DNA of 64,000 nt, taken from Gemmatimonadales bacterium. Lineage in GTDB: Bacteria > Gemmatimonadota > Gemmatimonadetes > Gemmatimonadales > GWC2-71-9. Below, piece by piece: positions 1,017-23,773 of this stretch (positions are counted from its first letter, which is position 1; every line of letters begins with the position of its first letter). The notes under the pieces were generated by a model. That model was not told where the DNA came from. It ran no database searches and saw only the letters and a program-made list of their open reading frames with translations. Made by a program: the position numbers and the translations under genes. The stretch is taken from positions 65,398 through 129,397 of the forward strand of contig DATIXG010000082.1 of the NCBI GenBank assembly GCA_035518815.1. The letters are read 5' to 3'.

Positions 1017-2420
1017 TCAGGCCGCAAGCTCGACCTTCTGTCCGTCGGTGGGTACCTCCACCCGCCACCCGTAGCGCTTCTCGATCGCCCGCGCCAGCGC
1101 GCTCGTCGCTTCAGGCTCGCCGTGGACCAGGTACGTGACGCGCGGCGGCCGCGCGAACCCGCCCAGCCATCGGAGTGTCTCGTCCCGGTCCGCGTGGGCG
1201 GACAGCGCCGTGATTTCGGCCACTCGCGCCCGCACGGTCGTATCGATGCCGAAGATCCGGATACGTTCCGCCCCCTCTTCGAGGGCCCGGCCGCGCGTGC
1301 CCGGCGCCTGATAGCCAACGAGTAGCACCGTCGTCTTCGGATCGCCGAGGCGCAGCGCCAGGTGGTGCAGGATCCGGCCCCCCGTTGCCATCCCGCTCGA
1401 CGAAATAATGATGATCGGCCCCCGAACGTCGTTGATACGCTTGGATTCTTCAGGCGTCCGGGCGATGTGCAAGCCGCCCGGATGGAGCGGGTTCTCGCCC
1501 CGCTCGAACGCCGCCGCTACCTGCGGATCGCACTCGGCAGCGTAACGGCGGTAGATGTCGGTCACCTCAATCGCCATCGGGCTGTCGCAGTACACCGGCA
1601 GCACCGGAATCGCCCCGGCGAGCTCGAGACGGCGGAGCATCCAGAGCAGCTCCTGGGTTCGGTCCACGGCGAACGCCGGCACGAGCAAGGCACCGCCCCG
1701 GCGCGCTGTGTCTTGTACCAGCGCGGCAAGCTCGGCTTCGGCACCCGTCGCATGTGTCCGGTCGCCGTACGTCGATTCGAGCAGCAAGATGTCGGCGTCG
1801 GGGATGGGAGCGGGATCGCGCAGGATCGCCCGGTCGTAGCGGCCCAGGTCTCCGGTGTAGACCAGGCGGGTGGGTCTCGAGCCACCCAGCGCGAGCTCGA
1901 TCGTGGCCGAGCCCAGAATGTGACCGGCTGGACGCAGGGTCGCCGTCACACCACGCACTACGGGAAAGGGCGTCTCGTACTCGCGACGCGCAATCAGCCG
2001 CAGTACCGCCTCGGCGTCCGCGGCGTCGTACAGCGGTAGTGCCGGGTGATGCTTCGTGTATCCCCGGCGGTTGGCGCGCTCGGCCTCCTCTTCCTGCAGG
2101 TGTGCCGCGTCGGGAAGCACCACCTCCAGCAGATCGCCGGTTGCGGCCGTGCAGTAGATGGGACCCCGGAACCCCTTGCGCACCACGAGCGGCAGGTACC
2201 CCGAGTGATCGACGTGCGCGTGGCTCACGACGATCGCATCGATCGTCCGCGGGTCCGGTACCCGGTCGCCCCAGTTGCGCAGGCGCAGGTCCTTGCGGCC
2301 CTGGAACAACCCGCAGTCGAGGAGGATGCGCCGGCCCTCCGCGCGCACGAGGTGCATCGACCCCGTGACCGTGCCCGCGGCGCCGAGGAACTCGACCGTC
2401 GGTTGTGCGACGCTCATCAT
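1017..2420 (-). CDS. MBL-fold beta-CASP metallo-hydrolase (RNA-metabolising family)
   Basis: 467-aa ORF with HAHVDHSGYLP (HxHxDH) metallo-beta-lactamase motif followed by a beta-CASP-like half. ATG 2418-2420 overlaps the TGA 2417-2419 of the upstream gene. Confidence 0.8.
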   Translation of the reverse strand: MMSVAQPTVEFLGAAGTVTGSMHLVRAEGRRILLDCGLFQGRKDLRLRNWGDRVPDPRTIDAIVVSHAHVDHSGYLPLVVRKGFRGPIYCTAATGDLLEVVLPDAAHLQEEEAERANRRGYTKHHPALPLYDAADAEAVLRLIARREYETPFPVVRGVTATLRPAGHILGSATIELALGGSRPTRLVYTGDLGRYDRAILRDPAPIPDADILLLESTYGDRTHATGAEAELAALVQDTARRGGALLVPAFAVDRTQELLWMLRRLELAGAIPVLPVYCDSPMAIEVTDIYRRYAAECDPQVAAAFERGENPLHPGGLHIARTPEESKRINDVRGPIIIISSSGMATGGRILHHLALRLGDPKTTVLLVGYQAPGTRGRALEEGAERIRIFGIDTTVRARVAEITALSAHADRDETLRWLGGFARPPRVTYLVHGEPEATSALARAIEKRYGWRVEVPTDGQKVELAA

Positions 2421-3184
2421 TGTCCGTCGACCCTACCCAGCAACCGGAGCAAGCCGTCGAGCGTGGTGAGCGGATGGGGCGGGCACCCCGGGACCCACAG
2501 GTCCACCGGCAAGATTGTGCCCACGCCGCCCGCGACCTCCGGGCTGCCCGAGAACGGGCCACCGCTCGCGGCACACGCTCCGACCGCGATGACGAGCTTG
2601 GGCGGGGGAACCGCCTCGTACGTCTGTTCGAGCGCGAACCGCATGTTCGTGTTGACCGCCCCCGTCACGACGATCCCGTCAGCGTGCCTCGGGGATGCCA
2701 CGAATTGCACGCCGAAGCGGCCGAGGTCGAACACCACATTGCCCAGCGCCACGAGTTCCGCTTCGCAGCCGCTGCAGCTGCCCGCCACGACCGAGCGGAG
2801 CCGAAGCGAGCGCCCGAACAGTTTGCGGGCGCGCTCATCGAGGGCCCGCGCCAGCTCAATCTCTCCAGTCGGACTGACCAGCGCGTCCCGCGTGGACGTG
2901 GCCATGCGATAGTCCCGGCTATAGCTGATCGCGCCTCGCGCACAGGAAGCCGCCTCTTCCGGGCTGAAGAGACACGCACCCAAATCGAGCGCGGCCGACC
3001 CGTGTGGCTCCGCTTTCAACAAGGCCGATGGCGCCCGGTCGGCGCATTGCCGGCAACTCTCCTCGCAGCGCGCCGCATCCCGCAGCGGACGGCCGCGAAA
3101 CCGCTCGGGAAATTCGCCGCCGTCCCGCGGGAACCGGGACGTCCGGATCCCCTGCTGGAGTCTCGTCCGGATCCAATCGAGCAC
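2417..3184 (-). CDS. NuoB/HycG-type [4Fe-4S] small subunit of a Hyf/Ehr-type membrane complex, with ~110-aa Cys-containing N-terminal extension
   Basis: The C-terminal half has GSCSGCE, VGACAASGGPF and VPGCPPHP, which supply the four Cys of the NuoB/HycG cluster. The N-terminal part has CEESCRQC plus two more Cys but no complete CxxCxxCxxxCP motif. Confidence 0.8.
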   Translation of the reverse strand: MLDWIRTRLQQGIRTSRFPRDGGEFPERFRGRPLRDAARCEESCRQCADRAPSALLKAEPHGSAALDLGACLFSPEEAASCARGAISYSRDYRMATSTRDALVSPTGEIELARALDERARKLFGRSLRLRSVVAGSCSGCEAELVALGNVVFDLGRFGVQFVASPRHADGIVVTGAVNTNMRFALEQTYEAVPPPKLVIAVGACAASGGPFSGSPEVAGGVGTILPVDLWVPGCPPHPLTTLDGLLRLLGRVDGQ

Positions 3185-3200
3185 CGCTTACGCCCTCATT

Positions 3201-4712
3201 TCAGAGATCGTGCCCAGCGTAGGACAGGTTGAAGCTCTTGTTGCAGAGCGGGAAATCGGAGATCTCGTTCCCGGGCATCGCCGCCGCCAGCGCGGGCCAG
3301 TTGTGAAACGAGGGGTCGGTGACTTTGTGCCGGCGGACGCGGCCAGTAGCGTCGGTGATCGCGACATGGACGATCTCCCCCCGCCATCCCTCGACCATCG
3401 CCACGGCCAGCTCATTCGGCCGCAAGCTGCCGCAGTCCACCCGTACCGGCCCCTTGGGAAGCGCGCCCAGTTGCTCGATCGTGAACTCGAGCGATCGCTG
3501 GATCTCGAGGCGCCGCACCAGCGCCCGCGCCAGCACGTCCCCCGCCCATGCGGTGGCGACGGGGATGTGCGCGAACCGGAAGATTCCCCAGGGATGATCG
3601 TGCCGCACGTCGCGCGGCAGCTCACAGGCGCGTGCCACAGGTCCGACGAAGCCGCGCTCCGCGCACGCGCTGCCAGTCACCACGCCCACACCCTCGAGCC
3701 GGGCCTGGACGGACCCGGCCTCGAACATCAGCGTGAGCACGGGGTCCATCTCCTCCCTCAGACGCTCGAGCCGGTCGCGCATCTGCTCGGCCATGGCGGG
3801 GGTGATGTCGAATGCCGCCCCGCCGGGCCGCACGAGACCGCGGCCGTAGCGATTGCCGGAGAGGGTCATCAGGAGGTTGAGACATTCTCCCCGCATGCGG
3901 CCCAGATACGCCGCCGCCGGTTGAAACGCGACGTCGCCCGCCATTGCGCCGAGATCGCCGATGTGGTTCGCCAGGCGCTCGAGCTCGAGCGCGATCCCAC
4001 GGATCGTCTGTCCCCGCGGCGTCTTGCGACTGCGGGCGAGCGCCTCGATTGCCCCGCAGTACGCCCCCGCGTGGCCGATCACCGTGTCCCCCGCGATCGA
4101 CTCGGCGACGAGCACGGCGCGATCGCGCTCGAGGCGCTCGAGCAGCGGCTCCACGCCGCGGTGCTGATAGCCGAGCATGATCTCGAGGAGCAACACCTGC
4201 TCACCGTGCGCCTGAAACCGGAAGTGTCCGGGCTCGATGATCCCGGCGTGTACGGGGCCGACCGCGACCTCGTGCACCTCCTCCCCCTCCACGCGGAAGA
4301 ACGGATACGCTTCACGGTCCAGCGACTGCGCCCGCCGCCCGGACGGGAGGTGATCTGGTGGATGGCGCCGCAGCGGCTTGAGCGAGGGGTGGCGCTCCGG
4401 CACCACGCCGCACTGCTCGGCGATCTCGCGCTCAAAGGTGTGGGCCTGCGGGCAGTCGACCGCAAGCGACGGGTAGCGGTCCCCGACGGCGGTGCTCGTC
4501 GCGCTGAGCTCCCCCGCCGCGTCATCGGCCAGGATCGCGATGAGGCGCGTCTCGTCCGTCCCCTCCGGCATCCCGAAGAGAGACGCGAGCCGCGACCCGC
4601 CGCTGACGGCCTGCAGGATCGATTCGCGAAACCGCTCCACCGGCTCGAGCGGTACGGAAGCGAGCTGGATCGCGCGCCGGTTGCGGAGGCCCAGCGCCCT
4701 GAAGCCGTTCAT
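3201..4712 (-). CDS. HycE/HyfG/NuoCD-like large subunit homologue lacking the NiFe-binding cysteines
   Basis: 503 aa. VGPVHAGIIEPGHFRF and C-terminal DPSFHNWPALAAAMPGNEISDFPL are HycE/HyfG-type, and there is a NuoC-like N-terminal ~120 aa. At the two CxxC ligand positions it reads ESIAGDTVIGH and KSFNLSYAGHDL. 4-nt overlap with the upstream gene. Confidence 0.85.
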   Translation of the reverse strand: MNGFRALGLRNRRAIQLASVPLEPVERFRESILQAVSGGSRLASLFGMPEGTDETRLIAILADDAAGELSATSTAVGDRYPSLAVDCPQAHTFEREIAEQCGVVPERHPSLKPLRRHPPDHLPSGRRAQSLDREAYPFFRVEGEEVHEVAVGPVHAGIIEPGHFRFQAHGEQVLLLEIMLGYQHRGVEPLLERLERDRAVLVAESIAGDTVIGHAGAYCGAIEALARSRKTPRGQTIRGIALELERLANHIGDLGAMAGDVAFQPAAAYLGRMRGECLNLLMTLSGNRYGRGLVRPGGAAFDITPAMAEQMRDRLERLREEMDPVLTLMFEAGSVQARLEGVGVVTGSACAERGFVGPVARACELPRDVRHDHPWGIFRFAHIPVATAWAGDVLARALVRRLEIQRSLEFTIEQLGALPKGPVRVDCGSLRPNELAVAMVEGWRGEIVHVAITDATGRVRRHKVTDPSFHNWPALAAAMPGNEISDFPLCNKSFNLSYAGHDL

Positions 4713-6148
4713 GGGGCGGAGCCACCGAGGGCGACGGCGGCGCGCGCCAGGACCTCTTGCAGCGGGCCCGGAATGAAAACGCCCAGCATCAAAACCGTGG
4801 CCGCGAGGGCGGCTGGACCCGCAACCAGCCAGGGGCTCTCGCGGACGGGGAGGCTGGCCGACGGGGGCTCACCGAGCGCGATCCCGAGCACGAGCGCCGC
4901 CATTCCCACAAAGATGATCGCCAGCATCAGCAGCATCACCACCGCGACCCAGGGGTGGCCGGCGTCGATCGCCGCGCGCAGGATCGTGAACTCGCTCATG
5001 AAGAGACCGAACGGAGGCGACCCCGTGACGGCGAACAGCCCGAGTACGAGAAGCGCCGCCGAGGCTGGCAGCGTGCGCACCAGTCCCCTCGCGCGCGCCG
5101 CCGTCGAGCTACCAGTCGCGAGCACGATGTTTCCGGTGACCAGGAACATCCAACCCTTGGCCAAGCCGTTGTTCACGAGGTGGAGCATGCTGCCGTATGC
5201 GCCCACGCCGCCCAACCCGAGCCCCAGCACGAGGAGCCCCATGTGCTCCACGCTCGAATACGCGAGGAGGCGCTTCACGTCGCTCTGCCCGATGATGAAC
5301 ACGGCGGCCACGGCGAGGGACACGAGTCCGAAACCCACGAGCACCGGTTGAGCAAACGACCCGAGCCCCGCGGCCATGACGACCTCCGTCACGCGGGCGA
5401 CCCCGAGAAAGGCGCACCCCGTCAGCGCGCCGGCCATGAGACCGCTGACGAGGCTGGGCGCTTCCCCGTAGGCGTCGGGCTTCCAGGTGTGCATCGGGGC
5501 AAGCCCCATCTTCGTGCCAAAGCCCACGAGCAAGAAGAGGAACGCAGCGCGCAGCCAGGCGGGGTGCAGCTCCCGGGCATGCGCGACCAGATCGGGGAGG
5601 ACGAGCGGACGCCCCGGGACGCCCTCCTGCGCGCTCGCCAGGAAGAAGGTACCGAGCAGCGCGAGCGCGATCCCGACCGACGAGATGACGAGGTACTTCC
5701 AGGTGGCCTCGAGCGAGCGACGGTCCCGGCGCAGGAACACCAGCGGCGCAACCGACAGGGTCGTTGCTTCCATCCCGACCCAGAGCAACGCCAGGTGATG
5801 CGCAAGCGCCACGACGGACGCCGCCGAGAGAAACGCCAGGAGGCAACCCGCGAAGACCCGGCCGCTGCGTGGCTTCTCGTGCCGCAGGTATCCCACCGTG
5901 TAGGTCACGGTGACGACGAAGAGCACGCTCGTGAGGGTGAGGACGATCATGCCCAGCGGATCAGCGGCGAGCCAACCGCCCAGCTCCGGCGGCGGGGGCG
6001 CAACCCAGAGGGACGCAACCAGCCCGAGATGGGCCAGCGCGGCCGCGGCGAGGAGGGCGACGGGGACGCGGCGTCCCCGGAATGCGGGCAGCACGAGCAC
6101 CGGGACCGCGACCAGCAAGGGCAGCCCACAGATGACGAGCAGACGCAT
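4709..6148 (-). CDS. Antiporter-like membrane subunit (HyfF/NuoN family)
   Basis: 479-aa polytopic ORF with FGTKMGLAPMHTWKPDAYGEAPS motif of the NuoL/M/N proton-antiporter-like family. ATG 6146-6148 shares one nt with the upstream TGA. Confidence 0.8.
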   Translation of the reverse strand: MRLLVICGLPLLVAVPVLVLPAFRGRRVPVALLAAAALAHLGLVASLWVAPPPPELGGWLAADPLGMIVLTLTSVLFVVTVTYTVGYLRHEKPRSGRVFAGCLLAFLSAASVVALAHHLALLWVGMEATTLSVAPLVFLRRDRRSLEATWKYLVISSVGIALALLGTFFLASAQEGVPGRPLVLPDLVAHARELHPAWLRAAFLFLLVGFGTKMGLAPMHTWKPDAYGEAPSLVSGLMAGALTGCAFLGVARVTEVVMAAGLGSFAQPVLVGFGLVSLAVAAVFIIGQSDVKRLLAYSSVEHMGLLVLGLGLGGVGAYGSMLHLVNNGLAKGWMFLVTGNIVLATGSSTAARARGLVRTLPASAALLVLGLFAVTGSPPFGLFMSEFTILRAAIDAGHPWVAVVMLLMLAIIFVGMAALVLGIALGEPPSASLPVRESPWLVAGPAALAATVLMLGVFIPGPLQEVLARAAVALGGSAP

Positions 6149-6792
6149 CAGTCGGTCAGCTCTCTGAGCCGCGTCGAATCGAGCGAGTCGAATTCGCGGT
6201 TGATGTGGAACACGACGATGCCCATGACGAACACACCGACGAAGACGTCGAGGAGCACGCCGAGCTCCATCAGGAACGGGACGCTTTCGGTCTGCGTCAG
6301 ACCGAAGAGATAGATCCCGTTCTCGAGTATGAGATAGCCGACCACTTGCGTGATGGCTTTGCGTCGGGTGGTGAGCACGATGAAGCCGATCATCACCGTT
6401 GCGAGGGACGCCGGCACGAGCAGCGGCTGCTGCAGGGCCGGCAGGGGCAGGCGGGCGGCGATGGCGAAGGCGAGCGCCAGCGCGAGCGCGCCGAGCAGCT
6501 GCGACGCGATGAAGCCCACCATCGGCTCGATCTCCCGACGCACGGCCGCCTCACGAATCGCCCGCGCCAGGAACCAGGGCAGCACAATCGCCTTCACGAG
6601 AACGGTGCCCATGCCGAGAGCGACGGCGTGTACCGAAACCTGTGGTGCGACGAGAACCGGGAGGAGGCCGAGCAGCAGGCCCTGGGCCGCGACGCCGCGG
6701 ATGCAGCTCGAGAGCCGCGTGGTGCCCAGGATGGCGAGGTCGGACAGGACCACGAGCAGGAGGACGAGCTGGGCGGCGTTTCGCACGGTCAA
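6148..6792 (-). CDS. HyfE-like small membrane subunit
   Basis: 214-aa hydrophobic ORF with GYLILENGIYLFG. It sits between the NuoH-like and NuoN-like genes as hyfE does in hyf operons. 4-nt overlap upstream. Confidence 0.65.
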   Translation of the reverse strand: MTVRNAAQLVLLLVVLSDLAILGTTRLSSCIRGVAAQGLLLGLLPVLVAPQVSVHAVALGMGTVLVKAIVLPWFLARAIREAAVRREIEPMVGFIASQLLGALALALAFAIAARLPLPALQQPLLVPASLATVMIGFIVLTTRRKAITQVVGYLILENGIYLFGLTQTESVPFLMELGVLLDVFVGVFVMGIVVFHINREFDSLDSTRLRELTD

Positions 6793-7700
6793 CCGAGCTG
6801 CAGGACGATGCCGAACAGCGCCAGGGCGCCCGCCCCCACGAGCAGCTGCGGCACGCGGCTGAGCCGCAGCCGCGCCATGGCCGACTCCACGACGCCCACG
6901 AAGACGGCCACGACTCCAAGCCCGAGGAACAGGACCGCAAGCGCCACGGGCCCGGACAGCCCCGCGCGCGGCACGAATACGCTCACAACCAATACGCCGA
7001 ACAGCGCGAGCTTGAGCGCGCTGCCATACAGGATCAGCGCGAGGTCGGGCCCGCTGTGGTCGAGGACGATCACCTCGTGGATCATCGTCAGTTCGAGATG
7101 GGTCGCCGGGTCGTCGACCGGAACTCTGCAGTTCTCCGCCAACAGCAAGACGAAGAGACTAATACCCACGAGGCTCAGCGACGCGCCCGCGCGGGGCCAC
7201 GCCTCGGCGAGCGGTGTCCCCAACATGCCCGCGAGCGAGGTATCGCCGGTCGCCAGCACAAGCGCAATGAAGCAAAGGAACAACGTCGGCTCCGCGAAGC
7301 TCGCGATCGTCACCTCGCGGCTCGCCCCCATTCCCTCGAAGCTCGAGCCCGTGTCGAGCCCCGCGAGCACGAGCGCGAAGCGCCCCAGCGCGAGCAGCCC
7401 CGCGAACGCGACCAGATCGCCTGCGAAGCTGGCGGGCGCTTCGCGTCCGTCGAGCGGCAGGAACAGCGCCGCCACAACCAGCGACGCAAGGACCACAACC
7501 GGGCCCGCGCGGAAGATCCATGACGTGGTCCGGCTGTAGACAGTCCCCTTCCGCACGAGCTTCCAGAGGTCGTAGTAAAGCTGCAGCACCGGCGGGCCGC
7601 GCCGCCCCGTCAGGAGCGACTTGGTCTTCACCACAACTCCCGACAGCGCCGGAGCCGCGAGCCCCAAGATGCCGAGCGCAGCGAGCCCTTCCCGCGTCAC
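6789..7700 (-). CDS. HycD/HyfC/NuoH-like membrane subunit
   Basis: The track ORF runs to 8060, but that part overlaps the upstream gene. GTG 7698-7700 overlaps the upstream TGA (GTGA). The product starts VTREGLAALGILGLAAP...TGRRGPPVLQLYYDLWKL, which is HycD-like. Confidence 0.75.
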   Translation of the reverse strand: MTREGLAALGILGLAAPALSGVVVKTKSLLTGRRGPPVLQLYYDLWKLVRKGTVYSRTTSWIFRAGPVVVLASLVVAALFLPLDGREAPASFAGDLVAFAGLLALGRFALVLAGLDTGSSFEGMGASREVTIASFAEPTLFLCFIALVLATGDTSLAGMLGTPLAEAWPRAGASLSLVGISLFVLLLAENCRVPVDDPATHLELTMIHEVIVLDHSGPDLALILYGSALKLALFGVLVVSVFVPRAGLSGPVALAVLFLGLGVVAVFVGVVESAMARLRLSRVPQLLVGAGALALFGIVLQLG

Positions 7701-9655
7701 AGGCCCCTTCCGGCGATGAGGAGGTAGAAGAGCAACCCGATGACGGCCGCGCCGACATACACGAGGTACAGGGACAGCGTGCCACGTTGCACCGAACGGA
7801 GCCTGGTGGCGGCGCTCTCGATGGCGTGCCAAGCAGGTAGAAATACGCGCTCCAGCACGGGGTCGAACGCGTGGGTGGCGAAGGCCTGCACGGTGCGGTC
7901 CGCGCGGAAGCCGGCGAACGACCGGAAGGTGCCGATGAGCGGGGCCGCGAAGGACGACGCGGTGTACGCCATCCGAGGCGTCGCCATCGCATAGGCGCAC
8001 CCCCAGGTCGGGGCCAGCGCCGGACGCGCGCGGCGACCGAACGCGCGACGGACTGCCCACGCCACGAGGAGGCCGACTGCGAGCGCGAGCGTGAACACCG
8101 TCGCGCCGACACTCGCCACCGGAGACCCTGCTCCGCCAGGGAGACCACCCGCGACGAGCGAACCCACCCGGAGCGCCGGCGGGACCACGGCGATCGGCAG
8201 CAGCCCGATCACGATGCAGGCGATCGCGAGGCCGACGGGCGGGTGGATCATGCCGCGGGGGGGCTCCCGGGCGCCATCAGCGACCGGGTCACGCGGCGTC
8301 CCCAGATAGATGACGCCTACCACCTTCGCGAAGCAGGCGAGGGCTAACGCGCCCATGAACGCGAGTGCCACGGCGGCGAGTACCGCTCGCGGCATCGCAT
8401 CGTGCGCGCTCCCGCCGCGGAGCAGCGCCTGGTATACCACCCACTCACTCACGAAGCCGTTCAGCGGCGGCAGCCCGACGATCGCCGCGGCGCCAACGAG
8501 GAATGCCGCCGCCGTCGTGGGCATGCGCCGAGCGAGCCCGCCAAGCCGGTCGATGTCCCGCGTGCCGGTGGCGTGAATCACCGAACCCGCGCCGAGGAAG
8601 AGGAGGCTCTTGAACAACGCGTGATTGAGCGTGTGAAGCGCAGCTCCGGCGAAGCCGAGCACCGCGATCAGCGGGTGGCCATACGCGAGGCCCAAGGCGC
8701 CCGCTCCGATCCCGAGCAGGACGATTCCGATGTTCTCGACGCTGTGGAAGGCGAGGAGCCGCTTGATGTCGTGCTGGGCGAGGGCCCAGACCACGCCGAG
8801 CACGCCGGAGCACGCCCCGAGGGCGAGCACGGTCCATCCCCACCAGGGTGGCGGCGCGCCGAACATGACCAGCGCACGCATCAGCCCATAGATCCCCATC
8901 TTGATCACGACGCCGGACATGAGCGCGGACACGTGCGCGGGCGCCGCAGCGTGCGCTTCGGGCAGCCAGACATGCAGTGGCACCACCCCCGCCTTCAGGC
9001 CGAAGGCGACGAGGGCGAGCGCCAGGATTATTGCCCCGCGGCCCTCCGAGAACGGCGCGTGCGCGGTAAGGGCGGCAAAGCTGAAATCACTCCCGACGCC
9101 CGCCCAGGCGGCGAAGAGAGCGAATAGCAACAAGGTCCCGGTGTGGGTCGCCACGAGGTAGATGAGACCGGCCCGACGCACCTCAGGTCGCTCGTGCTCG
9201 AACACGACCAGCAGATACGCCAGCACCGCCATCACTTCCCAGGCGATGAGGAAGGGCACGGCGGCGCGCGCGGTGACGGCAAGCGCCAGCGCGGTCACGA
9301 GCAGCGCCAACAGCAGATGCGCCGCCCCGACGGCGCGGTGACCGCGCTCATGATCCAGATAGGCAAGCCCGTAGAATGCGCACGCAGCGCCGACGATCAG
9401 GATCGCAAGCACGAACACGGCAGAGAGCGAATCGAGCCCGAACACCCACGCGCCGAAAGGCGCCCGGGTCGCCAACCGCACGTCGGGCACCGCAGCGCCG
9501 CCAAGCACCGCGAGTGCCGGCACCGCTCCGGTCACTGAGCCCGCCGCGAACAAAAGGCGGAACAACCTCTCCCCCAGCGCGGGATGCCGCCTCAATGCCG
9601 CCGCAGCGGCACCCGCCATGACGAGCAGCAGCAGGCTCACCGCGAACAGGGTCAC
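7697..9655 (-). CDS. Antiporter-like membrane subunit (HyfB/HyfD/NuoL-M family), second copy
   Basis: Start chosen at GTG 9653-9655, which overlaps the upstream TGA 9652-9654; a later ATG around 9618-9620 is an alternative. Carries FGLKAGVVPLHVWLPEAHAAAPAHVSALMSG. The Arg/Gly-rich 240 aa upstream in the track ORF is non-protein-like. Confidence 0.75.
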   Translation of the reverse strand: MTLFAVSLLLLVMAGAAAAALRRHPALGERLFRLLFAAGSVTGAVPALAVLGGAAVPDVRLATRAPFGAWVFGLDSLSAVFVLAILIVGAACAFYGLAYLDHERGHRAVGAAHLLLALLVTALALAVTARAAVPFLIAWEVMAVLAYLLVVFEHERPEVRRAGLIYLVATHTGTLLLFALFAAWAGVGSDFSFAALTAHAPFSEGRGAIILALALVAFGLKAGVVPLHVWLPEAHAAAPAHVSALMSGVVIKMGIYGLMRALVMFGAPPPWWGWTVLALGACSGVLGVVWALAQHDIKRLLAFHSVENIGIVLLGIGAGALGLAYGHPLIAVLGFAGAALHTLNHALFKSLLFLGAGSVIHATGTRDIDRLGGLARRMPTTAAAFLVGAAAIVGLPPLNGFVSEWVVYQALLRGGSAHDAMPRAVLAAVALAFMGALALACFAKVVGVIYLGTPRDPVADGAREPPRGMIHPPVGLAIACIVIGLLPIAVVPPALRVGSLVAGGLPGGAGSPVASVGATVFTLALAVGLLVAWAVRRAFGRRARPALAPTWGCAYAMATPRMAYTASSFAAPLIGTFRSFAGFRADRTVQAFATHAFDPVLERVFLPAWHAIESAATRLRSVQRGTLSLYLVYVGAAVIGLLFYLLIAGRGL

Positions 9656-11556
9656 CGCCGCACTCCGGGAAGGAAGAGCAAGGCCAACACCACGAGCACC
9701 GTGGCGCCGATGTACAGGAGTGACCCCGTGACGCGCGCCTGATGGTACGCGCGTATCCGCCGGCCCGCCCGTGCGACGGCGGCGAAGAGCGGCAGATAGA
9801 GACTCGTCAGCGCGCGGTCCACGGTCTCTCGCGACCGCTCCGTGTGTAGCACGGGTTGGAGGATGCGCGTCACGGGCTGGGCGAAGGAGGTGGCCGTGTA
9901 TTGCATGGCTACCGTCGGCGCGGCGTAGGCGCACCCCCAGGTCGCGCTCCTCCGTTGCAACGATCGCCGTCCCACCGCGAGCCGCAATGTGACAATGAGC
10001 GCCGTGGCCAAGGCGAGCAGTGGGCCCACGATGGCGAGCGGCGTCAGGGCGCTCTGCGCCACCTGCACGTCGGCCGCCGGCGCGACGATCGTCACCGCTC
10101 GACCGAGCAGAGCGGCGACGCGACCCGGTATCGCCCCCATAATCACGCAGCCCGCGGCAAACAGCACCGGGGGCAGGACCATCGCCCCGCCCGGAGGCCG
10201 CGCAGCTTCCGCCTCGGCGGTGCGCGCCGAGCCCGCGAGACCAATCCCCACGAGCCGGGCGAAGCACAGCACGGCAAGGCCGCCGGCGAGCGCGACAGCG
10301 ACGATGCTCCCGAGCAATGCGACCCGTGCGATCCCCTGCAGCGCCACGGCCCCGAACAGCAGCCCGCGCACGAGCAGCCACTCACTCGCGAAGATGTTCA
10401 GACCAGGAAGCGAGGCCAAAGCGGCCGCCCCGATGCAGAGCACCGCGCCGACCACCGGCCAGCCGCGCATGAATCCCCCCAAAGCATCGAGGCTCCGACT
10501 CCGCGCGCCTTGTGCGACCGCCCCGAACCCGAGGAACAGGAGCGCCTTCGCCAAAGCGTGATTCCAAACGTGGAGCAGCGCCGCCGTCCAGGCGAGCCCC
10601 GCCAGTACGGGCTGACCCTCCACAGTTGCCAGGAGAGCCACGCCCAGCGCGAGCGTCACGATTCCCACATTCTCTATCGTCGAATAGGCAAGCACGCGCT
10701 TCACGTCGCGCTGCGCGATTGCAAAGGCAACACCGCCTGAGGCGCCTACCGCCCCGAGACCGATCAGCAGGTATCCCCACCACAGGGCGGGGGGGCCGAA
10801 GAGCGGGATGAATCGCGCCAGGCCGTAGACGCCCATGGTGATCATGATCGCCGACATGAGCGCCGAAACGTGCGACGGCGCCGCGGGATGTGCGTCCGGC
10901 AGCCACACGTGCAGCGGCACGATACCCGCCTTGGTGCCGAAGCCGATCAGGGCGAGCCCGAAGAGCAGTCCCGACGGGACCACCGGCCCGAGCGTGGAAC
11001 GGGCGGTGAGGAACAGCGCCAGCAGCACGAGCGCCCCAGTCGCGACATGCCCGGCGACGAGGTATTGCAAGCCTGCTGCGCGAACCGCTGGCGCCTCGTG
11101 ATCGCTCACCACCAGTGCCCACGAGCTCAACGTCATCAACTCCCACGCGACGACGAGAAGCACGACATCGTTGGCCGTGACCACGAGTCCCATGGCGAGT
11201 AGGAGGACGTCGTACGCGGCAAGCGACGGCCCGATCGGTCGCCCGTGCGCGTGCCAGCGCAGGTACGCAACGCCGTAGACCGCGCAAAGTCCTCCAACGA
11301 GCGCCAGAGGGAGGAGGAAGACCGCCGCCAGTGGATCGAGCCGCAGGGCGAGCGCGCCTGCGGGCACACTCCACGGCGCGCGCCAGGACTGCGACACGCC
11401 GCCCGTGAGCGCGTGAGTGGCGGCGACTCCCAACGCGATCGCACCGGCGACAGCTCCCCCGCCGCCGAACAGTGCGCCCGCCCGGTGTCGCCGCAGCAGC
11501 AGCCCACCGCAGGCACCCATGCTCCAGCACAGGAACGCGATCCCGAGCCCGCCCAC
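9652..11556 (-). CDS. Antiporter-like membrane subunit (HyfB/NuoL family), first copy
   Basis: 634 aa with FGTKAGIVPLHVWLPDAHPAAPSHVSALMSA. GTG 11554-11556 overlaps the TAG 11556-11558 of the upstream regulator gene. Confidence 0.8.
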   Translation of the reverse strand: MGGLGIAFLCWSMGACGGLLLRRHRAGALFGGGGAVAGAIALGVAATHALTGGVSQSWRAPWSVPAGALALRLDPLAAVFLLPLALVGGLCAVYGVAYLRWHAHGRPIGPSLAAYDVLLLAMGLVVTANDVVLLVVAWELMTLSSWALVVSDHEAPAVRAAGLQYLVAGHVATGALVLLALFLTARSTLGPVVPSGLLFGLALIGFGTKAGIVPLHVWLPDAHPAAPSHVSALMSAIMITMGVYGLARFIPLFGPPALWWGYLLIGLGAVGASGGVAFAIAQRDVKRVLAYSTIENVGIVTLALGVALLATVEGQPVLAGLAWTAALLHVWNHALAKALLFLGFGAVAQGARSRSLDALGGFMRGWPVVGAVLCIGAAALASLPGLNIFASEWLLVRGLLFGAVALQGIARVALLGSIVAVALAGGLAVLCFARLVGIGLAGSARTAEAEAARPPGGAMVLPPVLFAAGCVIMGAIPGRVAALLGRAVTIVAPAADVQVAQSALTPLAIVGPLLALATALIVTLRLAVGRRSLQRRSATWGCAYAAPTVAMQYTATSFAQPVTRILQPVLHTERSRETVDRALTSLYLPLFAAVARAGRRIRAYHQARVTGSLLYIGATVLVVLALLFLPGVRR

Positions 11557-12254
11557 TAGGGCTCGTCGCTCGCAGGCCGCGGGCCGCTCGCTCGCTCGAG
11601 CGTGCGCACCCGTGTCAGAATGTCCGCCGCGGGGGACCGTCGAACGAGCAGCTTCCGCAGACTCTCATCGTGGAGCGCGAAACCGAGCTGCCCGAGAATC
11701 CGGAGGTGCGCCGGGACGTTTGGGCTCACCACCGTGAACAGGGCGTGCACCGGCTTGGCGTCCACCGCATCGAAGTCCACCGGGTCGCGCAGCAGACACA
11801 GGCTCACGAACGGGGCGGTGACGTGCAGCAGGATCGGATTGCGCACGTGTGGGATCGCGATTCCGTCACCGATCCCGGTGGAGCCCATGGCCTCCCGCGC
11901 CTCGAGTGTCGTCACCAGGAACTCCCGGTCGATCTCGGCCGGCAACGGGAGGCGCTGAACGATCTCGCGCAGCACACTCGCCTTGTCCCTGCCCCCCACC
12001 TCGTGATGAATCCCGCCTGCGGACAAGAGCTCGGACAGCGGGGGGACCCGTTCCGGCTGCCGCTGCGCCTGCTCCAGCAGCGTTCGCGATACCGGGATCC
12101 CGTTCTCGGTGGCCCACTCCCAAAGCTCGATGGCGTTCAGATGCAGTCGTTCATTCACGCGATGGACGGGGAGACCGCGGCGCTGAATCCAGCGCCGCAC
12201 CGTCGCCTCGTCCACCCCCAGGTAGGAGGCCGCCTCGCGCACCGTCAGCTGCAT
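11556..12254 (-). CDS. Fusion regulator: excisionase/MerR-type HTH + PTS EIIA(Ntr)-like domain
   Basis: ATG 12252-12254. The N-terminus LTVREAASYLGVDEATVRRWIQRRGLPVHRV is an HTH. The C-terminal ~150 aa are PtsN/EIIA-2-like, including GIGDGIAIPHVRN (phosphorylatable His context). Confidence 0.75.
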   Translation of the reverse strand: MQLTVREAASYLGVDEATVRRWIQRRGLPVHRVNERLHLNAIELWEWATENGIPVSRTLLEQAQRQPERVPPLSELLSAGGIHHEVGGRDKASVLREIVQRLPLPAEIDREFLVTTLEAREAMGSTGIGDGIAIPHVRNPILLHVTAPFVSLCLLRDPVDFDAVDAKPVHALFTVVSPNVPAHLRILGQLGFALHDESLRKLLVRRSPAADILTRVRTLERASGPRPASDEP

Positions 12255-12570: not shown

Positions 12571-12981
12571 ATGAAACTCATCACTACTATCGTCCGCCCC
12601 GAACGCCTTCCCGAAGTCAAGGAAGCGCTGTTCCGGGCCGGCGTCACGGGCATCACCCTCACCCGTGTGAGTGGCCACGGCGGTGAGCAGGAAGTCGTGG
12701 GACAGTACCGCGGCACGACGGTGGTCATGGAGTTCCACGAGAAGGTGAAGATCGAGATGGTCTGCTCCGAGCCGTTCGTCGAGGCGACCATCAAGGCGAT
12801 TCTCTCCTCCGCGCGCACCGGCGAGGTGGGAGACGGCAAGATCTTCATCCAGCCGATCGAGCGCGTGATCCGGATCCGCACCGGCGAAGTGGACAACGCC
12901 GCCCTGACGGCCGTCAACGCGGACGAGGTGCAGCGCCATGCGCTCGAGCACGCGCAGCAGGCCAAGGGAGGGGCGTCATGA
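12571..12981 (+). CDS. glnK: P-II nitrogen regulatory protein
   Basis: MKLITTIVRPERLPEVKEAL..., a T-loop with GQYRG (conserved Tyr) and GDGKIFIQPIE. It overlaps amtB by 4 nt (the typical glnK-amtB pair). 136 aa, i.e. about 24 aa longer than canonical P-II. Confidence 0.9.
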   Translation: MKLITTIVRPERLPEVKEALFRAGVTGITLTRVSGHGGEQEVVGQYRGTTVVMEFHEKVKIEMVCSEPFVEATIKAILSSARTGEVGDGKIFIQPIERVIRIRTGEVDNAALTAVNADEVQRHALEHAQQAKGGAS

Positions 12982-16269: not shown

Positions 16270-16341
<72 letters not shown>

Positions 16342-20500: not shown

Positions 20501-20683
20501 GCGCTCGACCGACTCGGGGCTCGCCCCCGTGTAGCGCGTCTGGATCACGATGAAGGGAAACTCGACGTCCGGGAACTGGTCGATATTCAGCCGCCGGTAC
20601 GAGAACAACCCCAGCACCACGAGCGTCATGATCATCATCGTGGCGAGCACCGGCCGCTTGATGGAGAGATCGCTCAGGAACAC
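17516..20683 (-). CDS. RND efflux pump permease (AcrB/HAE1-like)
   Basis: 1055 aa with the typical N-terminus [28 protein letters not shown] and the duplicated 6-TM plus large periplasmic loop architecture. Confidence 0.9.
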
Positions 20684-20686
20684 GGC

Positions 20687-23157: not shown

Positions 23158-23158
23158 G

Positions 23159-23773
23159 TCACTTCCCTCCACGCGGCGCGAGACCCTCGATGGCGAGCAT
23201 CAAGCGCCGGCGCAGCTCGGTTCTCAGCGGAAAGGGGGGTTTCGGCGTAGCGACGAACTCGAGGATCGTGCCCTGGTGCACGCAGTGCAGCACGCCGGCC
23301 AACCGCTCCGCCGCCTCGTCCTTCCGGAGCTCGCCGTTCGCCTGGAGCTTCTGGATCAGCCGCAGCGCGAGGTCGTCCCACTGCTTGCACAGCTCGTCAT
23401 CCTCGTTGTGCTGTCGCTGCATCCACTCGTCGAGGACGTACTTCGCCAGTGCGGGCTCTTCCTCGTAGAATGCCGCCAGCTCGGAGAACATCGTGATCAG
23501 CTGGGGCCCCACCCGCCCGGGCCTCGCGACGATCGCCGCGGACTCCTCCTCGGCCTGGGCGAACCAGTCCTCGGCCAGATAGCCGAACACGGCTTCCTTG
23601 CGCGGGAAGTAGTTGAAGAATGTGCCCTTGGCGATGTCCGCCTTCTCGCAGATCTCGTCGACCGTGGTCGCTTCGACGCCCTGGCGCTTGAACAGGGCAA
23701 AAGCGGCTTTGAAGATCCGATCCTTGGTCGCTTCTTTCTTGCGCTCTCGGCGGGAGAGTTCGACTTCCGTCAT
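23159..23773 (-). CDS. TetR-family transcriptional regulator
   Basis: 204 aa. N-terminal HTH KDRIFKAAFALFKRQGVEATTVDEICEKADIAKGTFFNYF. First gene of the efflux operon. Confidence 0.9.
   Translation of the reverse strand: MTEVELSRRERKKEATKDRIFKAAFALFKRQGVEATTVDEICEKADIAKGTFFNYFPRKEAVFGYLAEDWFAQAEEESAAIVARPGRVGPQLITMFSELAAFYEEEPALAKYVLDEWMQRQHNEDDELCKQWDDLALRLIQKLQANGELRKDEAAERLAGVLHCVHQGTILEFVATPKPPFPLRTELRRRLMLAIEGLAPRGGK

What the first reader, a model, noticed from the sequence alone, without database searches (positions are those of the whole stretch)
3201..4712. Hydrogenase large-subunit homologue has lost all four [NiFe]-ligating cysteines
Seen: the protein keeps the HycE/HyfG hallmark VGPVHAGIIEPGHFRF and the C-terminal DPSFHNWPALAAAMPGNEISDFPL. 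Group-4 hydrogenases carry the N-terminal ligand motif R-x-C-G-x-C-x-x-x-H; here that position reads ESIAGDTVIGHAGAY. They carry the C-terminal motif D-P-C-x-x-C-x-x-R; here the protein ends KSFNLSYAGHDL-stop. Established: both CxxC pairs are needed to bind the NiFe centre, and their loss is what separates NuoD and the Ehr group from true hydrogenases. My alignment is by eye against the remembered E. coli HycE sequence and needs confirmation. Inference: this is not a hydrogenase; the pocket is either repurposed or structural.
Basis: partly seen in the sequence, partly recalled or inferred. Interest (0 to 1): 0.7.

Follow-up and report, generated by a model that had tools for sequence, protein, structure and literature searches.

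The report
Cysteine-less hydrogenase-like Ehr large subunit
This gene encodes the large subunit of an "Ehr" complex, a widespread membrane machine built like a hydrogenase and like respiratory complex I; it has no nickel-iron site, the family is already described, and its job is still unknown.

Summary
The 503-aa protein (3201-4712, minus strand) is a full-length HycE/NuoCD-type subunit. In it the four [NiFe] cysteines of E. coli HycE are replaced by A207, T210, S497 and G500, and the protease-cleaved C-terminal tail is missing.

This is not a new kind of protein. It is the large subunit (EhrL) of an Ehr, "energy-converting hydrogenase related", complex, known since 2005/2013. It lies in the standard operon: regulator, ehrA1, A2, B, C, D, L, S. 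The cysteine loss is ancient, with one Cys-less clade sister to Cys-containing relatives, and relatives occur in at least 596 species representatives.

The pocket looks repurposed, not decayed. The replacement residues and two Ehr-specific aspartates (D209, D466) are near-invariant, and the hydrogenase/complex-I proton-path residues, the N2-type cluster ligands and all antiporter charges are kept.

Three points were not in the papers I could read. An HTH+PTS-EIIA gene heads about 80% of ehr operons. Fe-S ligand sets are lost mosaically across lineages. This Gemmatimonadota clade lacks the canonical ligands of the middle relay cluster (N6b).

The function remains unknown. My best guess is a non-hydrogenase, ion-translocating complex-I-like module.

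The parts
3201..4712 (-). ehrL: large subunit, 503 aa. It is a NuoC-like N-domain (about residues 1-125) fused to a HycE/NuoD-like domain. All four [NiFe] Cys are replaced and there is no C-terminal extension.
   Evidence: AF2 model pLDDT 92.9. Best fold match is HycE 7z0s_E, TM 0.88.
4071..4103 (-). Former L1 motif, residues 204-214, ESIAGDTVIGH. A207 and T210 replace Cys1 and Cys2. G208 is shared with hydrogenases. D209 is Ehr-specific (98/106 Asp).
3204..3245 (-). Former L2 motif, residues 490-503, CNKSFNLSYAGHDL. S497 and G500 replace Cys3 and Cys4. N495 replaces the canopy Asp. C490 is near-invariant. Position 499 is Ala here but Cys in most other phyla.
4215..4262 (-). Beta1-beta2 loop region, residues 151-166, VGPVHAGIIEPGHFRF. 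E160 is the equivalent of the proton-transfer Glu193 of HycE. I159 sits where complex I has its quinone-ligating His. Residues 157-161 are the only segment of the model with pLDDT below 50.
   Evidence: PMC9474812.
3309..3317 (-). D466-P467-S468, an Ehr-specific Asp-Pro. True hydrogenases have Ser/Ala-Ala here; NuoD has Thr-Pro-Ser.
2417..3184 (-). ehrS: small subunit, 255 aa. It is a HycF/NuoI-like ferredoxin domain (1-125) fused to a NuoB/HycG-like domain (126-255). The four N2-type ligands C137, C140, C204 and C234 are kept.
3029..3067 (-). EhrS ferredoxin motif 1, residues 40-52, C-EES-C-RQ-C-ADR-A-P. Three Cys are kept (N6a-type cluster together with C81). The fourth Cys, an N6b ligand, is replaced by Ala.
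2939..2974 (-). EhrS ferredoxin motif 2, residues 71-82, C-LF-S-PE-E-AAS-C-A. Cys2 and Cys3 are replaced by S74 and E77, so the canonical N6b ligand set is absent. The remodelled block GACLFSPxE is invariant in 121 Gemmatimonadota relatives.
4709..6148 (-). ehrD: HyfF/NuoN-like antiporter-type subunit. TM5 Glu127, TM7 Lys213, His323/Lys331 and TM12 Glu386 are kept.
6148..6792 (-). ehrC: HyfE-like membrane subunit. Conserved K67, E157, E176 and D182 are shared with HyfE.
6789..7700 (-). ehrB: HycD/NuoH-like subunit (start inferred at 7700). It keeps R33, D44, R128, E137, D196, E203 and R277, all shared with HycD, HyfC and NuoH.
7697..9655 (-). ehrA2: HyfB/NuoL-like antiporter-type subunit (start inferred at 9655). 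E140, K221, H341/H345/K349 and E404 are kept.
9652..11556 (-). ehrA1: second HyfB/NuoL-like antiporter-type subunit. E139, K209, H329/H333/K337 and E392 are kept.
11556..12254 (-). First gene of the operon: HTH_17 plus PTS_EIIA_2 (PtsN-like) protein. The likely start is Met74 of the longer ORF that runs to 12473. The phospho-acceptor motif GIAIPH is present.
   Evidence: Conserved position in 44/56 related loci and His kept in 45/46.

Best explanation
The gene is ehrL, the large subunit of an Ehr (energy-converting-hydrogenase-related) complex of a Gemmatimonadales bacterium. It is not a [NiFe] hydrogenase and not complex I. The complex has complex-I-like architecture. The membrane arm has three antiporter-type subunits (EhrA1, EhrA2, EhrD) plus a NuoH-like EhrB and a HyfE-like EhrC. 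The peripheral arm has only two polypeptides: EhrL (NuoC+NuoD equivalents) and EhrS (NuoI+NuoB equivalents).

Shown: the former NiFe pocket has been remodelled into a conserved polar, acidic site (A/S207, G208, D209, S/T210, D466, N495, S497, Y498, G500). The site is still connected to the conserved proton-transfer residues of hydrogenases and complex I (E160, H250, R361, E403, R444). It lies next to the N2-type [4Fe-4S] ligand set, which is kept.

Inferred: a proton-coupled event at this pocket, most probably reduction of an acceptor other than H+ with electrons arriving through the Fe-S clusters of EhrS, drives or gates ion translocation by the antiporter modules, as in MBH, MBS and complex I.

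In this Gemmatimonadota lineage the canonical ligands of the relay cluster (N6b) are gone. The site is remodelled to an invariant C-x2-S-x2-E, while the N6a and N2 ligands stay under strong constraint. The electron route therefore differs from the family norm.

Expression or activity is probably controlled by the co-transcribed HTH+PTS-EIIA protein through phosphorylation of its conserved His.
For: Identity: loss of both CxxC pairs. The best sequence and fold match is HycE. The NJ tree places the query inside one Cys-less clade that is sister to Cys-containing relatives. The operon A-A-B-C-D-L-S has the same composition as G. sulfurreducens Ehr GSU0739-45 (PMC7894505) and is syntenic in 80 loci from more than 8 phyla, including Geomonas and Geobacter.

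Selection on the pocket: G208, D209, N491, K492, S493, S497, Y498, G500 and D502 are 90-100% conserved in 60 sequences whose mean column identity is 37%. The Ehr-versus-hydrogenase discriminating positions are D209, D466, P467, S497, G500 and L503. The signature is virtually invariant across the 80 loci.

Proton path kept: E160 98/106, H250 101/106, R361 95/106, E403 100/106, R444 99/106, mapped from the FHL structure paper PMC9474812.

Redox hardware: 51 of 70 EhrS sequences keep all 12 Cys for three [4Fe-4S] clusters. In 121 Gemmatimonadota EhrS sequences the N2 ligands are 121/121 and the N6a ligands 117-121/121.

Pump hardware: the TM5 Glu, TM7 Lys, TM11 His/Lys and TM12 Glu are present in all three antiporter-like subunits. 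Conserved charges are present in EhrB and EhrC.

Operon structure: gene overlaps of 1-4 nt run from the EIIA gene through ehrL, consistent with one transcription unit.

Regulator: HTH_17+PTS_EIIA_2 lies in the operon in 44/56 loci, and the GxAxPH His is kept in 45/46.
Against: None of the papers I could read reports a biochemical assay of an Ehr complex, and no Ehr structure came up in the PDB copy searched. The acceptor and even the requirement for redox chemistry are therefore inferred.

The Q-ligating Tyr and His of NuoD are absent (G208, I159). No donor module (FDH, NuoEFG, HycB) is encoded nearby, either here or recurrently in related loci.

The canonical wire is interrupted in this clade because the N6b ligands are lost. 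Six loci from three phyla lack the N2 ligands altogether yet keep the same pocket signature. That argues that pocket conservation does not depend on electron delivery.

The assignment of the lost cluster to N6b, the one next to N2, rests on a review table (PMC9783039) combined with my own residue numbering of human NDUFS8.
Confidence: 0.6

Rival explanations
1. Redox-independent, or only redox-gated, cation/proton transporter. The complex-I-like scaffold works as a regulated Mrp-like antiporter. The acidic pocket (E160, D209, D466) with its proton path is an ion- or proton-loading and gating site. The remaining Fe-S clusters are structural or sensory. The PtsN-like EIIA protein links the complex to ion or nitrogen/carbon homeostasis.
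For: Each of the three Fe-S ligand sets is dispensable in some lineage while the EhrL pocket signature stays invariant: N6b is lost in Gemmatimonadota, N6a in 4 loci, both ferredoxin clusters in 2 loci, and N2 in 6 loci. No electron-input module is encoded nearby. All antiporter charges are intact. The conserved partner is a PtsN-like EIIA; from general knowledge, not tested here, PtsN proteins regulate K+ transport in E. coli. SulP-type anion transporters are adjacent in 8/80 loci.
Against: 51 of 70 EhrS sequences keep all 12 cluster Cys across distant phyla. In this clade the N2 and N6a ligands are 97-100% conserved, which is costly for a purely structural role. Known Mrp antiporters need no peripheral arm. 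The Fe-S-deficient variants could be neofunctionalised paralogues.
Confidence: 0.2
2. Ferredoxin:menaquinone oxidoreductase. This would be a stripped-down functional analogue of NDH-1 or complex I in which the remodelled pocket binds a quinone head group.
For: The architecture matches 11-subunit complex-I-like enzymes that take electrons from ferredoxin through N6a, N6b and N2 (PMC6616624). The fold also matches NuoCD. The DPSF motif resembles TPSF of NuoD. The authors of the Hyq work argue that the quinone-cavity elements are conserved (PMC3357923).
Against: The two quinone ligands of NuoD are missing; the Tyr87 and His38 equivalents are G208 and I159. The pocket is rich in carboxylates. I could not test for a quinone channel because model coordinates and multimer modelling were unavailable. 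The N6b ligands are missing in this clade.
Confidence: 0.12
3. A non-canonical, cysteine-free hydrogenase (H2:quinone 'endo-hydrogenase'), as claimed for the Hyq complex of Azorhizobium caulinodans.
For: Deletion of hyqRBCEFGI raised H2 evolution 10-15-fold in N2-fixing cultures (PMC3357923, PMC2650096). An Azospirillum HyqG-like protein, from a genus the Hyq authors list as hyq-bearing, carries the same Cys-less signature (SGDS...NCSYSGHDL). The proton-transfer Glu and the canopy Arg of hydrogenases are retained.
Against: All four metal ligands are absent, and no hyp, hycI or other maturation genes occur in the 64 kb. The protein has no C-terminal maturation tail. No cell-free hydrogenase assay exists for Hyq, as the authors themselves state. 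The phenotype could be indirect. Other authors treat Ehr as non-hydrogenases. Hyq is a distant subgroup, about 36% identical, with a different regulator and no ferredoxin domain.
Confidence: 0.05
4. An evolutionary relic: a decaying former hydrogenase operon with no selected function.
For: The catalytic ligands are lost, and Fe-S ligands are eroded in some lineages.
Against: All eight core genes (regulator through ehrS), and the downstream beta-CASP gene, are intact ORFs, most with tight 1-4-nt overlaps. The replacement residues are near-invariant over sequences that are 50% identical or less, from many phyla. Relatives occur in at least 596 species representatives. Ehr subunits are detected and regulated at protein level in Geobacter (PMC7894505).
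Confidence: 0.03

Closest known systems
Ehr (energy-converting / Ech-hydrogenase-related) complexes, e.g. Geobacter sulfurreducens EhrA-1, A-2, B, C, D, L, S (GSU0739-45). Defined by Coppi 2005 and Marreiros et al. 2013, as cited in PMC7894505 and PMC6349859.
   Same: The large subunit is related to group 4 hydrogenases but lacks both CxxC motifs. The subunit set and gene order are the same. Geobacteraceae and Geomonas orthologues are about 52% identical and syntenic. The function is unknown.
   Different: This is a Gemmatimonadota member. Its EhrS has lost the canonical N6b ligands and its EhrL has Ala instead of the common Cys at position 499. I could not read the founding paper, so I cannot say which of my family-wide observations it already contains.
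Hyq 'endo-hydrogenase' (hyqRBCEFGI) of Azorhizobium caulinodans and other alphaproteobacterial diazotrophs
   Same: Cys-less HyqG of 504 aa with a NuoC::NuoD fusion. Membrane genes of types B, C, E and F. An N2-type small subunit. The operon starts with its own regulator.
   Different: About 36% identity. A single HyfB-like gene. HyqI is NuoB-only, without a ferredoxin domain. In the Rhizobium rhizogenes plasmid operon I examined, the first gene is a 98-aa Xre-type HTH unrelated to the HTH_17-EIIA protein here. The A. caulinodans operon is under NifA/sigma-54 control and linked to H2 recycling.
Cys-containing relatives sharing the DFPL-x-NKSF motif. The literature calls group 4f hydrogenases the group closest to Ehr (PMC10284858).
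   Same: About 37-41% identity. They share VGPxHAGxIEPGHFRF and NKSF. They form the sister clade in my NJ tree.
   Different: They keep CGxC...CxxC. They have a hydrophobic residue where Ehr has D209, and Ser-Ala where Ehr has D466-P467. I did not verify their HydDB class.
E. coli formate hydrogenlyase HycE/HycG/HycF (PDB 7Z0S) and hydrogenase-4 HyfG
   Same: Best sequence match (E = 8.7e-48) and best fold match (TM 0.88). NuoC-like N-domain fusion. The beta1-beta2 loop Glu, canopy Arg and the His/Glu/Arg proton path are shared. The membrane subunits are Hyf-like.
   Different: No NiFe ligands. No C-terminal tail for HycI. The HycF and HycG equivalents are fused into one protein. No HycB or FdhF partner.
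Respiratory complex I NuoCD/NuoB/NuoI and cyanobacterial NDH-1
   Same: Overall fold and modular architecture. An N2-type cluster. Antiporter-like subunits with the canonical charges. No NiFe site.
   Different: The quinone-ligating Tyr and His are lacking (G208, I159). Sequence is closer to hydrogenases. No NuoA, NuoJ, NuoK or NuoEFG set. NCBIfam NuoD models score far below their cut-offs, 181 bits against 360.
Pyrococcus furiosus MBS/Mbx (PDB 6U8Y), a hydrogenase-derived sulfane reductase
   Same: It is a precedent for a group-4-derived complex whose pocket was re-used for a non-H2 substrate. It matches the query at E = 6.7e-23.
   Different: A separate, more distant lineage. Its substrate chemistry has no demonstrated relevance here, and I did not test this beyond the PDB sequence match.

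Membership tests
Ehr complexes | Large subunit homologous to group 4 [NiFe]-hydrogenase large subunits but lacking both CxxC metal-binding motifs | tested here: met
   the four columns read A207, T210, S497, G500. The best PDB match is HycE.
Ehr complexes | Falls in the Cys-less clade adjacent to Cys-containing group 4 (4f-like) sequences | tested here: met
   an NJ tree of 117 sequences gives a single Cys-less clade sister to the CCCC clade, with the query nested inside. The tree is a rough distance tree with no bootstrap.
Ehr complexes | Operon encoding NuoL-like (EhrA), NuoH-like (EhrB), HyfE-like (EhrC) and NuoN/HyfF-like (EhrD) subunits plus large and small subunits | tested here: met
   (domain content). 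(Geobacter subunit list). (synteny in 80 loci).
Ehr complexes | Absence of the complex I quinone-binding residues in the large subunit | tested here: met
   the Nqo4 His38 equivalent is I159 and the Tyr87 equivalent is G208. That this is a defining feature is my recollection of Marreiros et al. 2013, which I could not read.
Ehr complexes | No dependence on Hyp/HycI maturation machinery | tested here: inconclusive
   There is no C-terminal extension and no hypA, hypB or hycI homologues in the 64-kb window. The rest of the genome is unseen.
Group 4 [NiFe] hydrogenases | L1 motif RxCGxCxxxH and L2 motif DPCxxCxxR providing four Cys ligands | tested here: not met
Group 4 [NiFe] hydrogenases | C-terminal extension removed by a maturation endopeptidase (as in HycE/HyfG) | tested here: not met
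   the protein ends at the position of HycE R537.
Group 4 [NiFe] hydrogenases | H2 evolution or uptake activity | not testable with these tools
   This needs purified enzyme. Only indirect in-vivo genetics exists, and for the distant Hyq relatives.
Complex I NuoD / NDH-1 NdhH | Quinone-ligating Tyr (Nqo4 Y87) and His (Nqo4 H38), and NuoD family model scores above cut-off | tested here: not met
   NCBIfam NuoD equivalog models score 181 and 146 bits against cut-offs of 360 and 459.
NuoB/HycG-type small subunit with an N2-type [4Fe-4S] cluster (EhrS C-domain) | Four conserved Cys (CxxC ... GAC ... GCPP) | tested here: met
   121/121 in close relatives. Actual cluster occupancy was not tested.
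NuoI/HycF-type 2x[4Fe-4S] ferredoxin domain (EhrS N-domain) | Two CxxCxxCxxxCP motifs (8 Cys) | tested here: not met
   only C40, C44, C47, C81 (an N6a-type set) and C71 remain. The N6b set is reduced to one Cys. The 8 Cys are present in 57 of 70 family members (the 51 with all 12 Cys plus the 6 N2-less loci).
PTS EIIA(Ntr)/PtsN-like regulators (first operon gene) | PTS_EIIA_2 fold with the phosphorylatable His in a GIAIPH-type motif | tested here: met
   Pfam PF00359, E = 2e-22. The motif is present and the His is conserved 45/46. The score is below the NCBIfam PtsN equivalog cut-off, 61.7 against 138.7, so it is PtsN-like rather than PtsN. Phosphorylation was not tested.

The most novel reading that the evidence does not exclude
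The remodelled pocket of EhrL may be a new active centre rather than a scar. One possibility is a cysteine-free metal or substrate site (ligand candidates D209, D466, S497, C490, H501) that still turns over H2 or another small molecule, as the 'endo-hydrogenase' genetics of the related Hyq complex implies. The other is a proton/cation-loading site that lets a complex-I-type machine pump ions without a conventional redox reaction, under PTS-type phospho-control. The mosaic loss of each Fe-S cluster with an unchanged pocket leaves both open.
Probability: 0.2. Interest if true: 0.85.

Novelty: new member of a known kind. Interest (0 to 1): 0.35.

Why it matters
Ehr complexes are among the most widespread members of the complex-I/hydrogenase superfamily with no known function.

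They are routinely annotated as "hydrogenase large subunit" or "NuoC", which inflates estimates of H2 metabolism in metagenomic surveys. This locus shows that aerobic soil lineages such as Gemmatimonadales carry one.

The family-wide comparison made from this locus gives concrete handles for experiments. These are two Ehr-specific aspartates in the former NiFe pocket, a retained proton pathway, a conserved PtsN-like regulator, and natural variants that lack individual Fe-S clusters. If the complex proves to pump ions without a classical redox substrate, or to catalyse new chemistry at the pocket, that would bear on how complex I evolved from hydrogenases.

Tried and rejected
1. A literature search for 'EhrL/EhrS' was swamped by electronic-health-record papers. 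The founding Ehr paper (Marreiros 2013) is not held. A search on Geobacter locus tags gave nothing on function or on the regulator.

2. I looked for a conserved electron-input partner next to ehr operons by clustering 2141 flanking ORFs from 80 loci. No FDH, NuoEF or ferredoxin recurs. Only generic families and a SulP transporter (8/80 loci) do. I therefore rejected the FDH-Ehr idea of PMC6349859 for this clade.

3. A tblastn search of the window with HypA, HypB, HycI, HycH, HycB, HyfA, HyfR and NuoE/F/G gave no hits.

4. A scan for sigma-54 or NifA-type control, as in hyq, found only a weak 2-mismatch match that lacks the GG of the -24 element. I did not pursue it. The sigma-70 promoter and terminator scan gave nothing above the shuffle expectation.

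5. NCBIfam has no model that reaches its cut-off for any subunit. Database names never say 'Ehr'.

6. I tested whether HyqR equals the HTH-EIIA protein. It does not: the first gene of the Rhizobium rhizogenes Hyq-type operon is an Xre-type HTH with no similarity.

7. I considered that the N2-less EhrS sequences might be frameshift artefacts. I rejected this because the flanking motifs align perfectly and the substitutions are consistent (S/D, E, W/F).

8. The pocket lining and a possible quinone cavity could not be examined, because the structure tool returns no coordinates and no multimers.
Full report
THE OBSERVATION

Pfam sees a Complex1_49kDa (NuoD/HycE) domain and a weak Complex1_30kDa (NuoC) N-terminal domain.

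phmmer against all PDB chains gives E. coli HycE (7z0s_E) as the best hit, E = 8.7e-48. Next come P. furiosus MbhL, T. thermophilus Nqo4 and many NDUFS2 chains. The printed alignment puts HycE RVCGICGFAH over query SIAGDTVIGH, and HycE SLDPCYSC over query SFNLSYAG. A MAFFT alignment with E. coli HycE, HyfG and NuoCD, fetched from NC_000913, gives the same columns.

In HycE numbering, C241, C244, C531 and C534 correspond to A207, T210, S497 and G500. The protein ends exactly where mature HycE ends, so the tail removed by the HycI protease is absent. EchE was not included in the alignment.

WHAT THE GENE BELONGS TO

The protein is 100% identical to a "hypothetical protein" of a Gemmatimonadales MAG. 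It sits in a tightly packed minus-strand operon in which most neighbouring genes overlap by 1-4 nt. The order is:

- an HTH_17+PTS_EIIA_2 protein (11556-12254);
- two HyfB/NuoL-like subunits (9652-11556 and 7697-9655);
- a HycD/NuoH-like subunit (6789-7700);
- a HyfE-like subunit (6148-6792);
- a HyfF/NuoN-like subunit (4709-6148);
- the large subunit (3201-4712);
- a 255-aa small subunit (2417-3184).

This is the composition described for the Ehr ("Ech-hydrogenase-related" or "energy-converting hydrogenase related") complex of Geobacter sulfurreducens: EhrA-1, A-2, B, C, D, L, S, GSU0739-45 (PMC7894505). Several papers define Ehr as relatives of group 4 hydrogenases, close to group 4f, that lack the CxxC motifs and whose function is unknown (PMC10284858, PMC6349859, PMC6728331, PMC10432482, PMC7304191).

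HOW OLD AND HOW WIDESPREAD THE LOSS IS

An exhaustive HMMER search of 1.84 billion cluster representatives found 843 proteins at E ≤ 1e-30. Of the 116 near-full-length proteins among the top 150, all but six lack the cysteines. They share a signature: [A/S]-G-D-[S/T] in place of C-G-x-C, and DFP-x-x-NKSF-x-x-S-Y-x-G-x-D-L in place of the L2 motif.

The six Cys-containing sequences form one clade. It is sister to a single Cys-less clade in an NJ tree, and the query is nested deep inside the Cys-less clade (a distance tree only).

The best 80 loci come from Gemmatimonadota, Planctomycetota, Verrucomicrobiota, Omnitrophota, Geobacterales/Desulfuromonadales, Acidobacteriota, Spirochaetota, Myxococcota, Actinomycetota, Bacteroidota and Riflebacteria. 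Gene order A(-A)-B-C-D-L-S is conserved in essentially all of them.

IS THE POCKET A SCAR OR A SITE?

In 60 diverse Ehr large subunits the mean column identity is 37%. Against that background, G208 and D209 are at least 90% conserved, N491, K492, S493, Y498, G500, D502 and L503 are invariant, and L496 and S497 are at least 90% conserved.

I compared 106 Ehr sequences with 8 Cys-containing ones. The positions that discriminate the two groups are D209 (hydrophobic in hydrogenases), D466-P467 (Ser/Ala-Ala in hydrogenases), S497, G500 and L503. So the loss of the metal ligands came with the gain of two conserved aspartates.

Using the residues highlighted in the E. coli FHL structure paper (PMC9474812), I mapped the proton machinery:

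| HycE residue | Role | Query residue | State in 106 Ehr |
|---|---|---|---|
| E193 | beta1-beta2 loop Glu | E160 | E in 98 |
| H284 | proton path | H250 | H in 101 |
| R395 | proton path | R361 | R in 95 |
| E437 | proton path | E403 | E in 100 |
| R478 | canopy Arg | R444 | R in 99 |
| D529 | canopy Asp | N495 | N in 67, D in 21 |

Across the 80 loci the whole signature is almost invariant. That includes C490. Position 499 is Cys in most phyla but Ala in all Gemmatimonadota.

The AlphaFold2 model is confident: pLDDT 92.9, pTM 0.94. The only segment below 50 is residues 157-161, the beta1-beta2 loop that is mobile in FHL and complex I. Foldseek's best hit is HycE (TM 0.88), followed by E. coli NuoCD. 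No closer structure came up in the PDB copy searched.

These data favour "repurposed" over "relic". The complex-I quinone ligands are not present: the Nqo4 H38 equivalent is I159 and the Y87 equivalent is G208.

THE SMALL SUBUNIT AND THE ELECTRON WIRE

EhrS is a fusion. Residues 1-125 align with HycF/NuoI and residues 126-255 with HycG/NuoB. The four N2-type ligands are present. In 51 of 70 EhrS sequences from the related loci, all 12 Cys for three [4Fe-4S] clusters are present.

In the Gemmatimonadota clade (the query and L004-L009), motif 1 keeps three Cys but its fourth is A/M/V/F/L. Motif 2 reads C-x2-S/A-x2-E-x3-C. In 2x[4Fe-4S] ferredoxin folds each cluster takes three Cys from one motif and the fourth from the other; this is established knowledge.

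The review PMC9783039 states that mature Cys126 of NDUFS8 ligates N6a. By my numbering of the human sequence, Cys126 is the fourth Cys of motif 2. The chain runs donor, N6a, N6b, N2 (PMC6616624). The canonical ligand set that is missing here is therefore that of N6b, the relay next to N2. This assignment partly rests on my own numbering.

In 121 further Gemmatimonadota EhrS cluster representatives:

- the N2 ligands are 121/121;
- the N6a ligands are 117-121/121;
- the remodelled block G-A-C71-L-F-S74-P-x-E77 is invariant;
- the fourth-ligand position varies freely.

Only 28 of the 125 N-domain positions are this conserved. The site is therefore remodelled and constrained, not eroding. What occupies it is unknown.

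Other lineages show other losses:

- four loci (L029, L032, L078, L070) lack the N6a ligands;
- two Omnitrophota loci lack both ferredoxin clusters;
- six loci from Planctomycetota, Verrucomicrobiota and Actinomycetota lack the N2 ligands. The Cys are replaced by S/D, E, and W/F, within otherwise perfectly aligned motifs.

All of these variants keep the EhrL pocket signature. Hyq-type small subunits have no ferredoxin domain at all.

THE MEMBRANE ARM

EhrA1, EhrA2 and EhrD keep the canonical TM5 Glu, TM7 Lys, TM11 His/Lys and TM12 Glu of NuoL/M/N and HyfB/D/F. EhrB keeps a set of charges shared with HycD, HyfC and NuoH (R33, D44, R128, E137, D196, E203, R277). EhrC keeps K67, E157, E176 and D182, shared with HyfE. 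The ion-translocation hardware looks intact.

THE REGULATOR

The first gene has an HTH_17 domain and a PTS_EIIA_2 domain. The latter is most similar to PtsN but scores below that model's cut-off.

A homologue lies on the same strand in the ehr cluster in 41 loci and divergently adjacent in 3 more. That is 44 of the 56 loci with at least 1 kb of upstream sequence. In some loci it sits between the two ehrA genes or directly before ehrL. Pfam confirms the architecture in Geomonas, a planctomycete and a verrucomicrobium. The phospho-acceptor His of the GxAxPH motif is kept in 45 of 46.

None of the papers I could read mentions this association. In the Rhizobium rhizogenes plasmid Hyq-type operon I examined, the first gene is instead an unrelated Xre-type HTH.

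No formate dehydrogenase, NuoEF, HycB-like or other donor gene recurs next to ehr operons. A SulP-family transporter is adjacent in 8 of 80 loci. The window holds no hyp, hycI, hycB or nuoEFG homologues.

MECHANISM

Shown:
- the complex has a complete complex-I-like pumping scaffold;
- it has a conserved, proton-connected, acidic pocket in place of the NiFe site;
- the N2-type cluster ligands are kept;
- a PtsN-like regulator is co-encoded.

Inferred: for the family at large, a three-cluster wire in one fused subunit, with no dedicated donor module, most simply implies direct reduction by a soluble low-potential carrier such as ferredoxin. A non-H+ acceptor would then be reduced at the pocket and ion translocation coupled to that event, as in MBH, MBS or NDH-1.

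For this Gemmatimonadales copy the canonical relay is missing, so the electron route is altered or the clusters now serve another role. I put about 0.95 on the identity (EhrL, not a NiFe hydrogenase) and about 0.5 on the redox-coupled pump mechanism.

The main rival is a redox-independent or redox-gated cation/proton transporter. Its support is the mosaic dispensability of each cluster with an unchanged pocket, and the PtsN-like partner. Against it stands the very strong conservation of the Cys ligands in most lineages.

The quinone-reductase version lacks the known quinone ligands. The "cysteine-free hydrogenase" version has only the indirect Hyq genetics: a delta-hyqRI mutant evolves 10-15 times more H2, and no cell-free assay exists (PMC3357923). 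The relic version is contradicted by the conservation data.

VERDICT

The object is a new (Gemmatimonadota) member of the already described Ehr family, so novelty is modest.

The residual interest lies in the family's unknown function and in three features that may not have been described: the Ehr-specific aspartates with a retained proton path, the mosaic loss of Fe-S ligand sets (including the remodelled N6b site of this clade), and the conserved HTH-EIIA gene. I could not check these against the founding paper.

Noticed in passing
window 1017-2420 (-): A beta-CASP / metallo-beta-lactamase RNase-type gene (Beta-Casp, RMMBL and Lactamase_B domains) starts 4 nt inside the end of ehrS, so it looks co-transcribed. 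In the closest related locus (L004) the homologue lies elsewhere, so the linkage is not conserved.
   Followed up: partly
window 12571-14327 (+): A P-II nitrogen regulator and an AmtB ammonium transporter are transcribed divergently from the ehr operon, whose first gene is PtsN-like. PII-AmtB lies within 10 kb of ehr in only 2 of 80 other loci (L051, L060), so this is probably coincidence.
   Followed up: partly
L019, L024, L048, L061, L069, L079 (EhrS genes just downstream of position ~11500, or ~5200 in L048 and ~9200 in L079): These Ehr small subunits have all or most of the N2-cluster cysteines replaced (S/D, E/V, E/D/S, W/F/N). They keep the eight ferredoxin-domain Cys, and their EhrL pocket signature is unchanged. 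These are natural N2-less variants in three phyla.
   Followed up: partly
L046 13476-20557 and L056 2496-9950: A second, divergent Cys-less Ehr paralogue cluster (35-39% identical large subunit) sits directly next to the first in a Geobacteraceae MAG and a Verrucomicrobia MAG.
   Followed up: partly
L009, L028, L035, L040, L050, L053, L058, L079 (flanks of the ehr operon): A SulP/SLC26-family anion transporter gene lies next to, or within a few kb of, the ehr operon in 8 of 80 loci. It is the only non-generic recurrent neighbour found.
   Followed up: no
L035 177-3214; L047 9152-12339; L061 9219-12279: In these Planctomycetaceae and Verrucomicrobiia loci an HTH-EIIA gene sits immediately upstream of ehrL-ehrS. 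In L035 and L047 no membrane-subunit genes lie immediately upstream, and in L061 this is a second HTH-EIIA copy inside the operon.
   Followed up: no
window 16270-16341 (-) and 17516-23773 (-): One tRNA gene, and a TetR / outer-membrane factor / membrane-fusion / AcrB-type RND efflux operon. Both are ordinary.
   Followed up: no
database annotations of homologues (P0001-P0120, P0271-P0390, L084-L086): Cys-less Ehr large subunits are variously named 'hydrogenase large subunit', 'nickel-dependent hydrogenase large subunit', 'Ni,Fe-hydrogenase III large subunit', 'NADH-quinone oxidoreductase subunit C' or 'hypothetical protein'. No NCBIfam model reaches its cut-off for them. Surveys that count hydrogenases by annotation will over-count.
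   Followed up: partly
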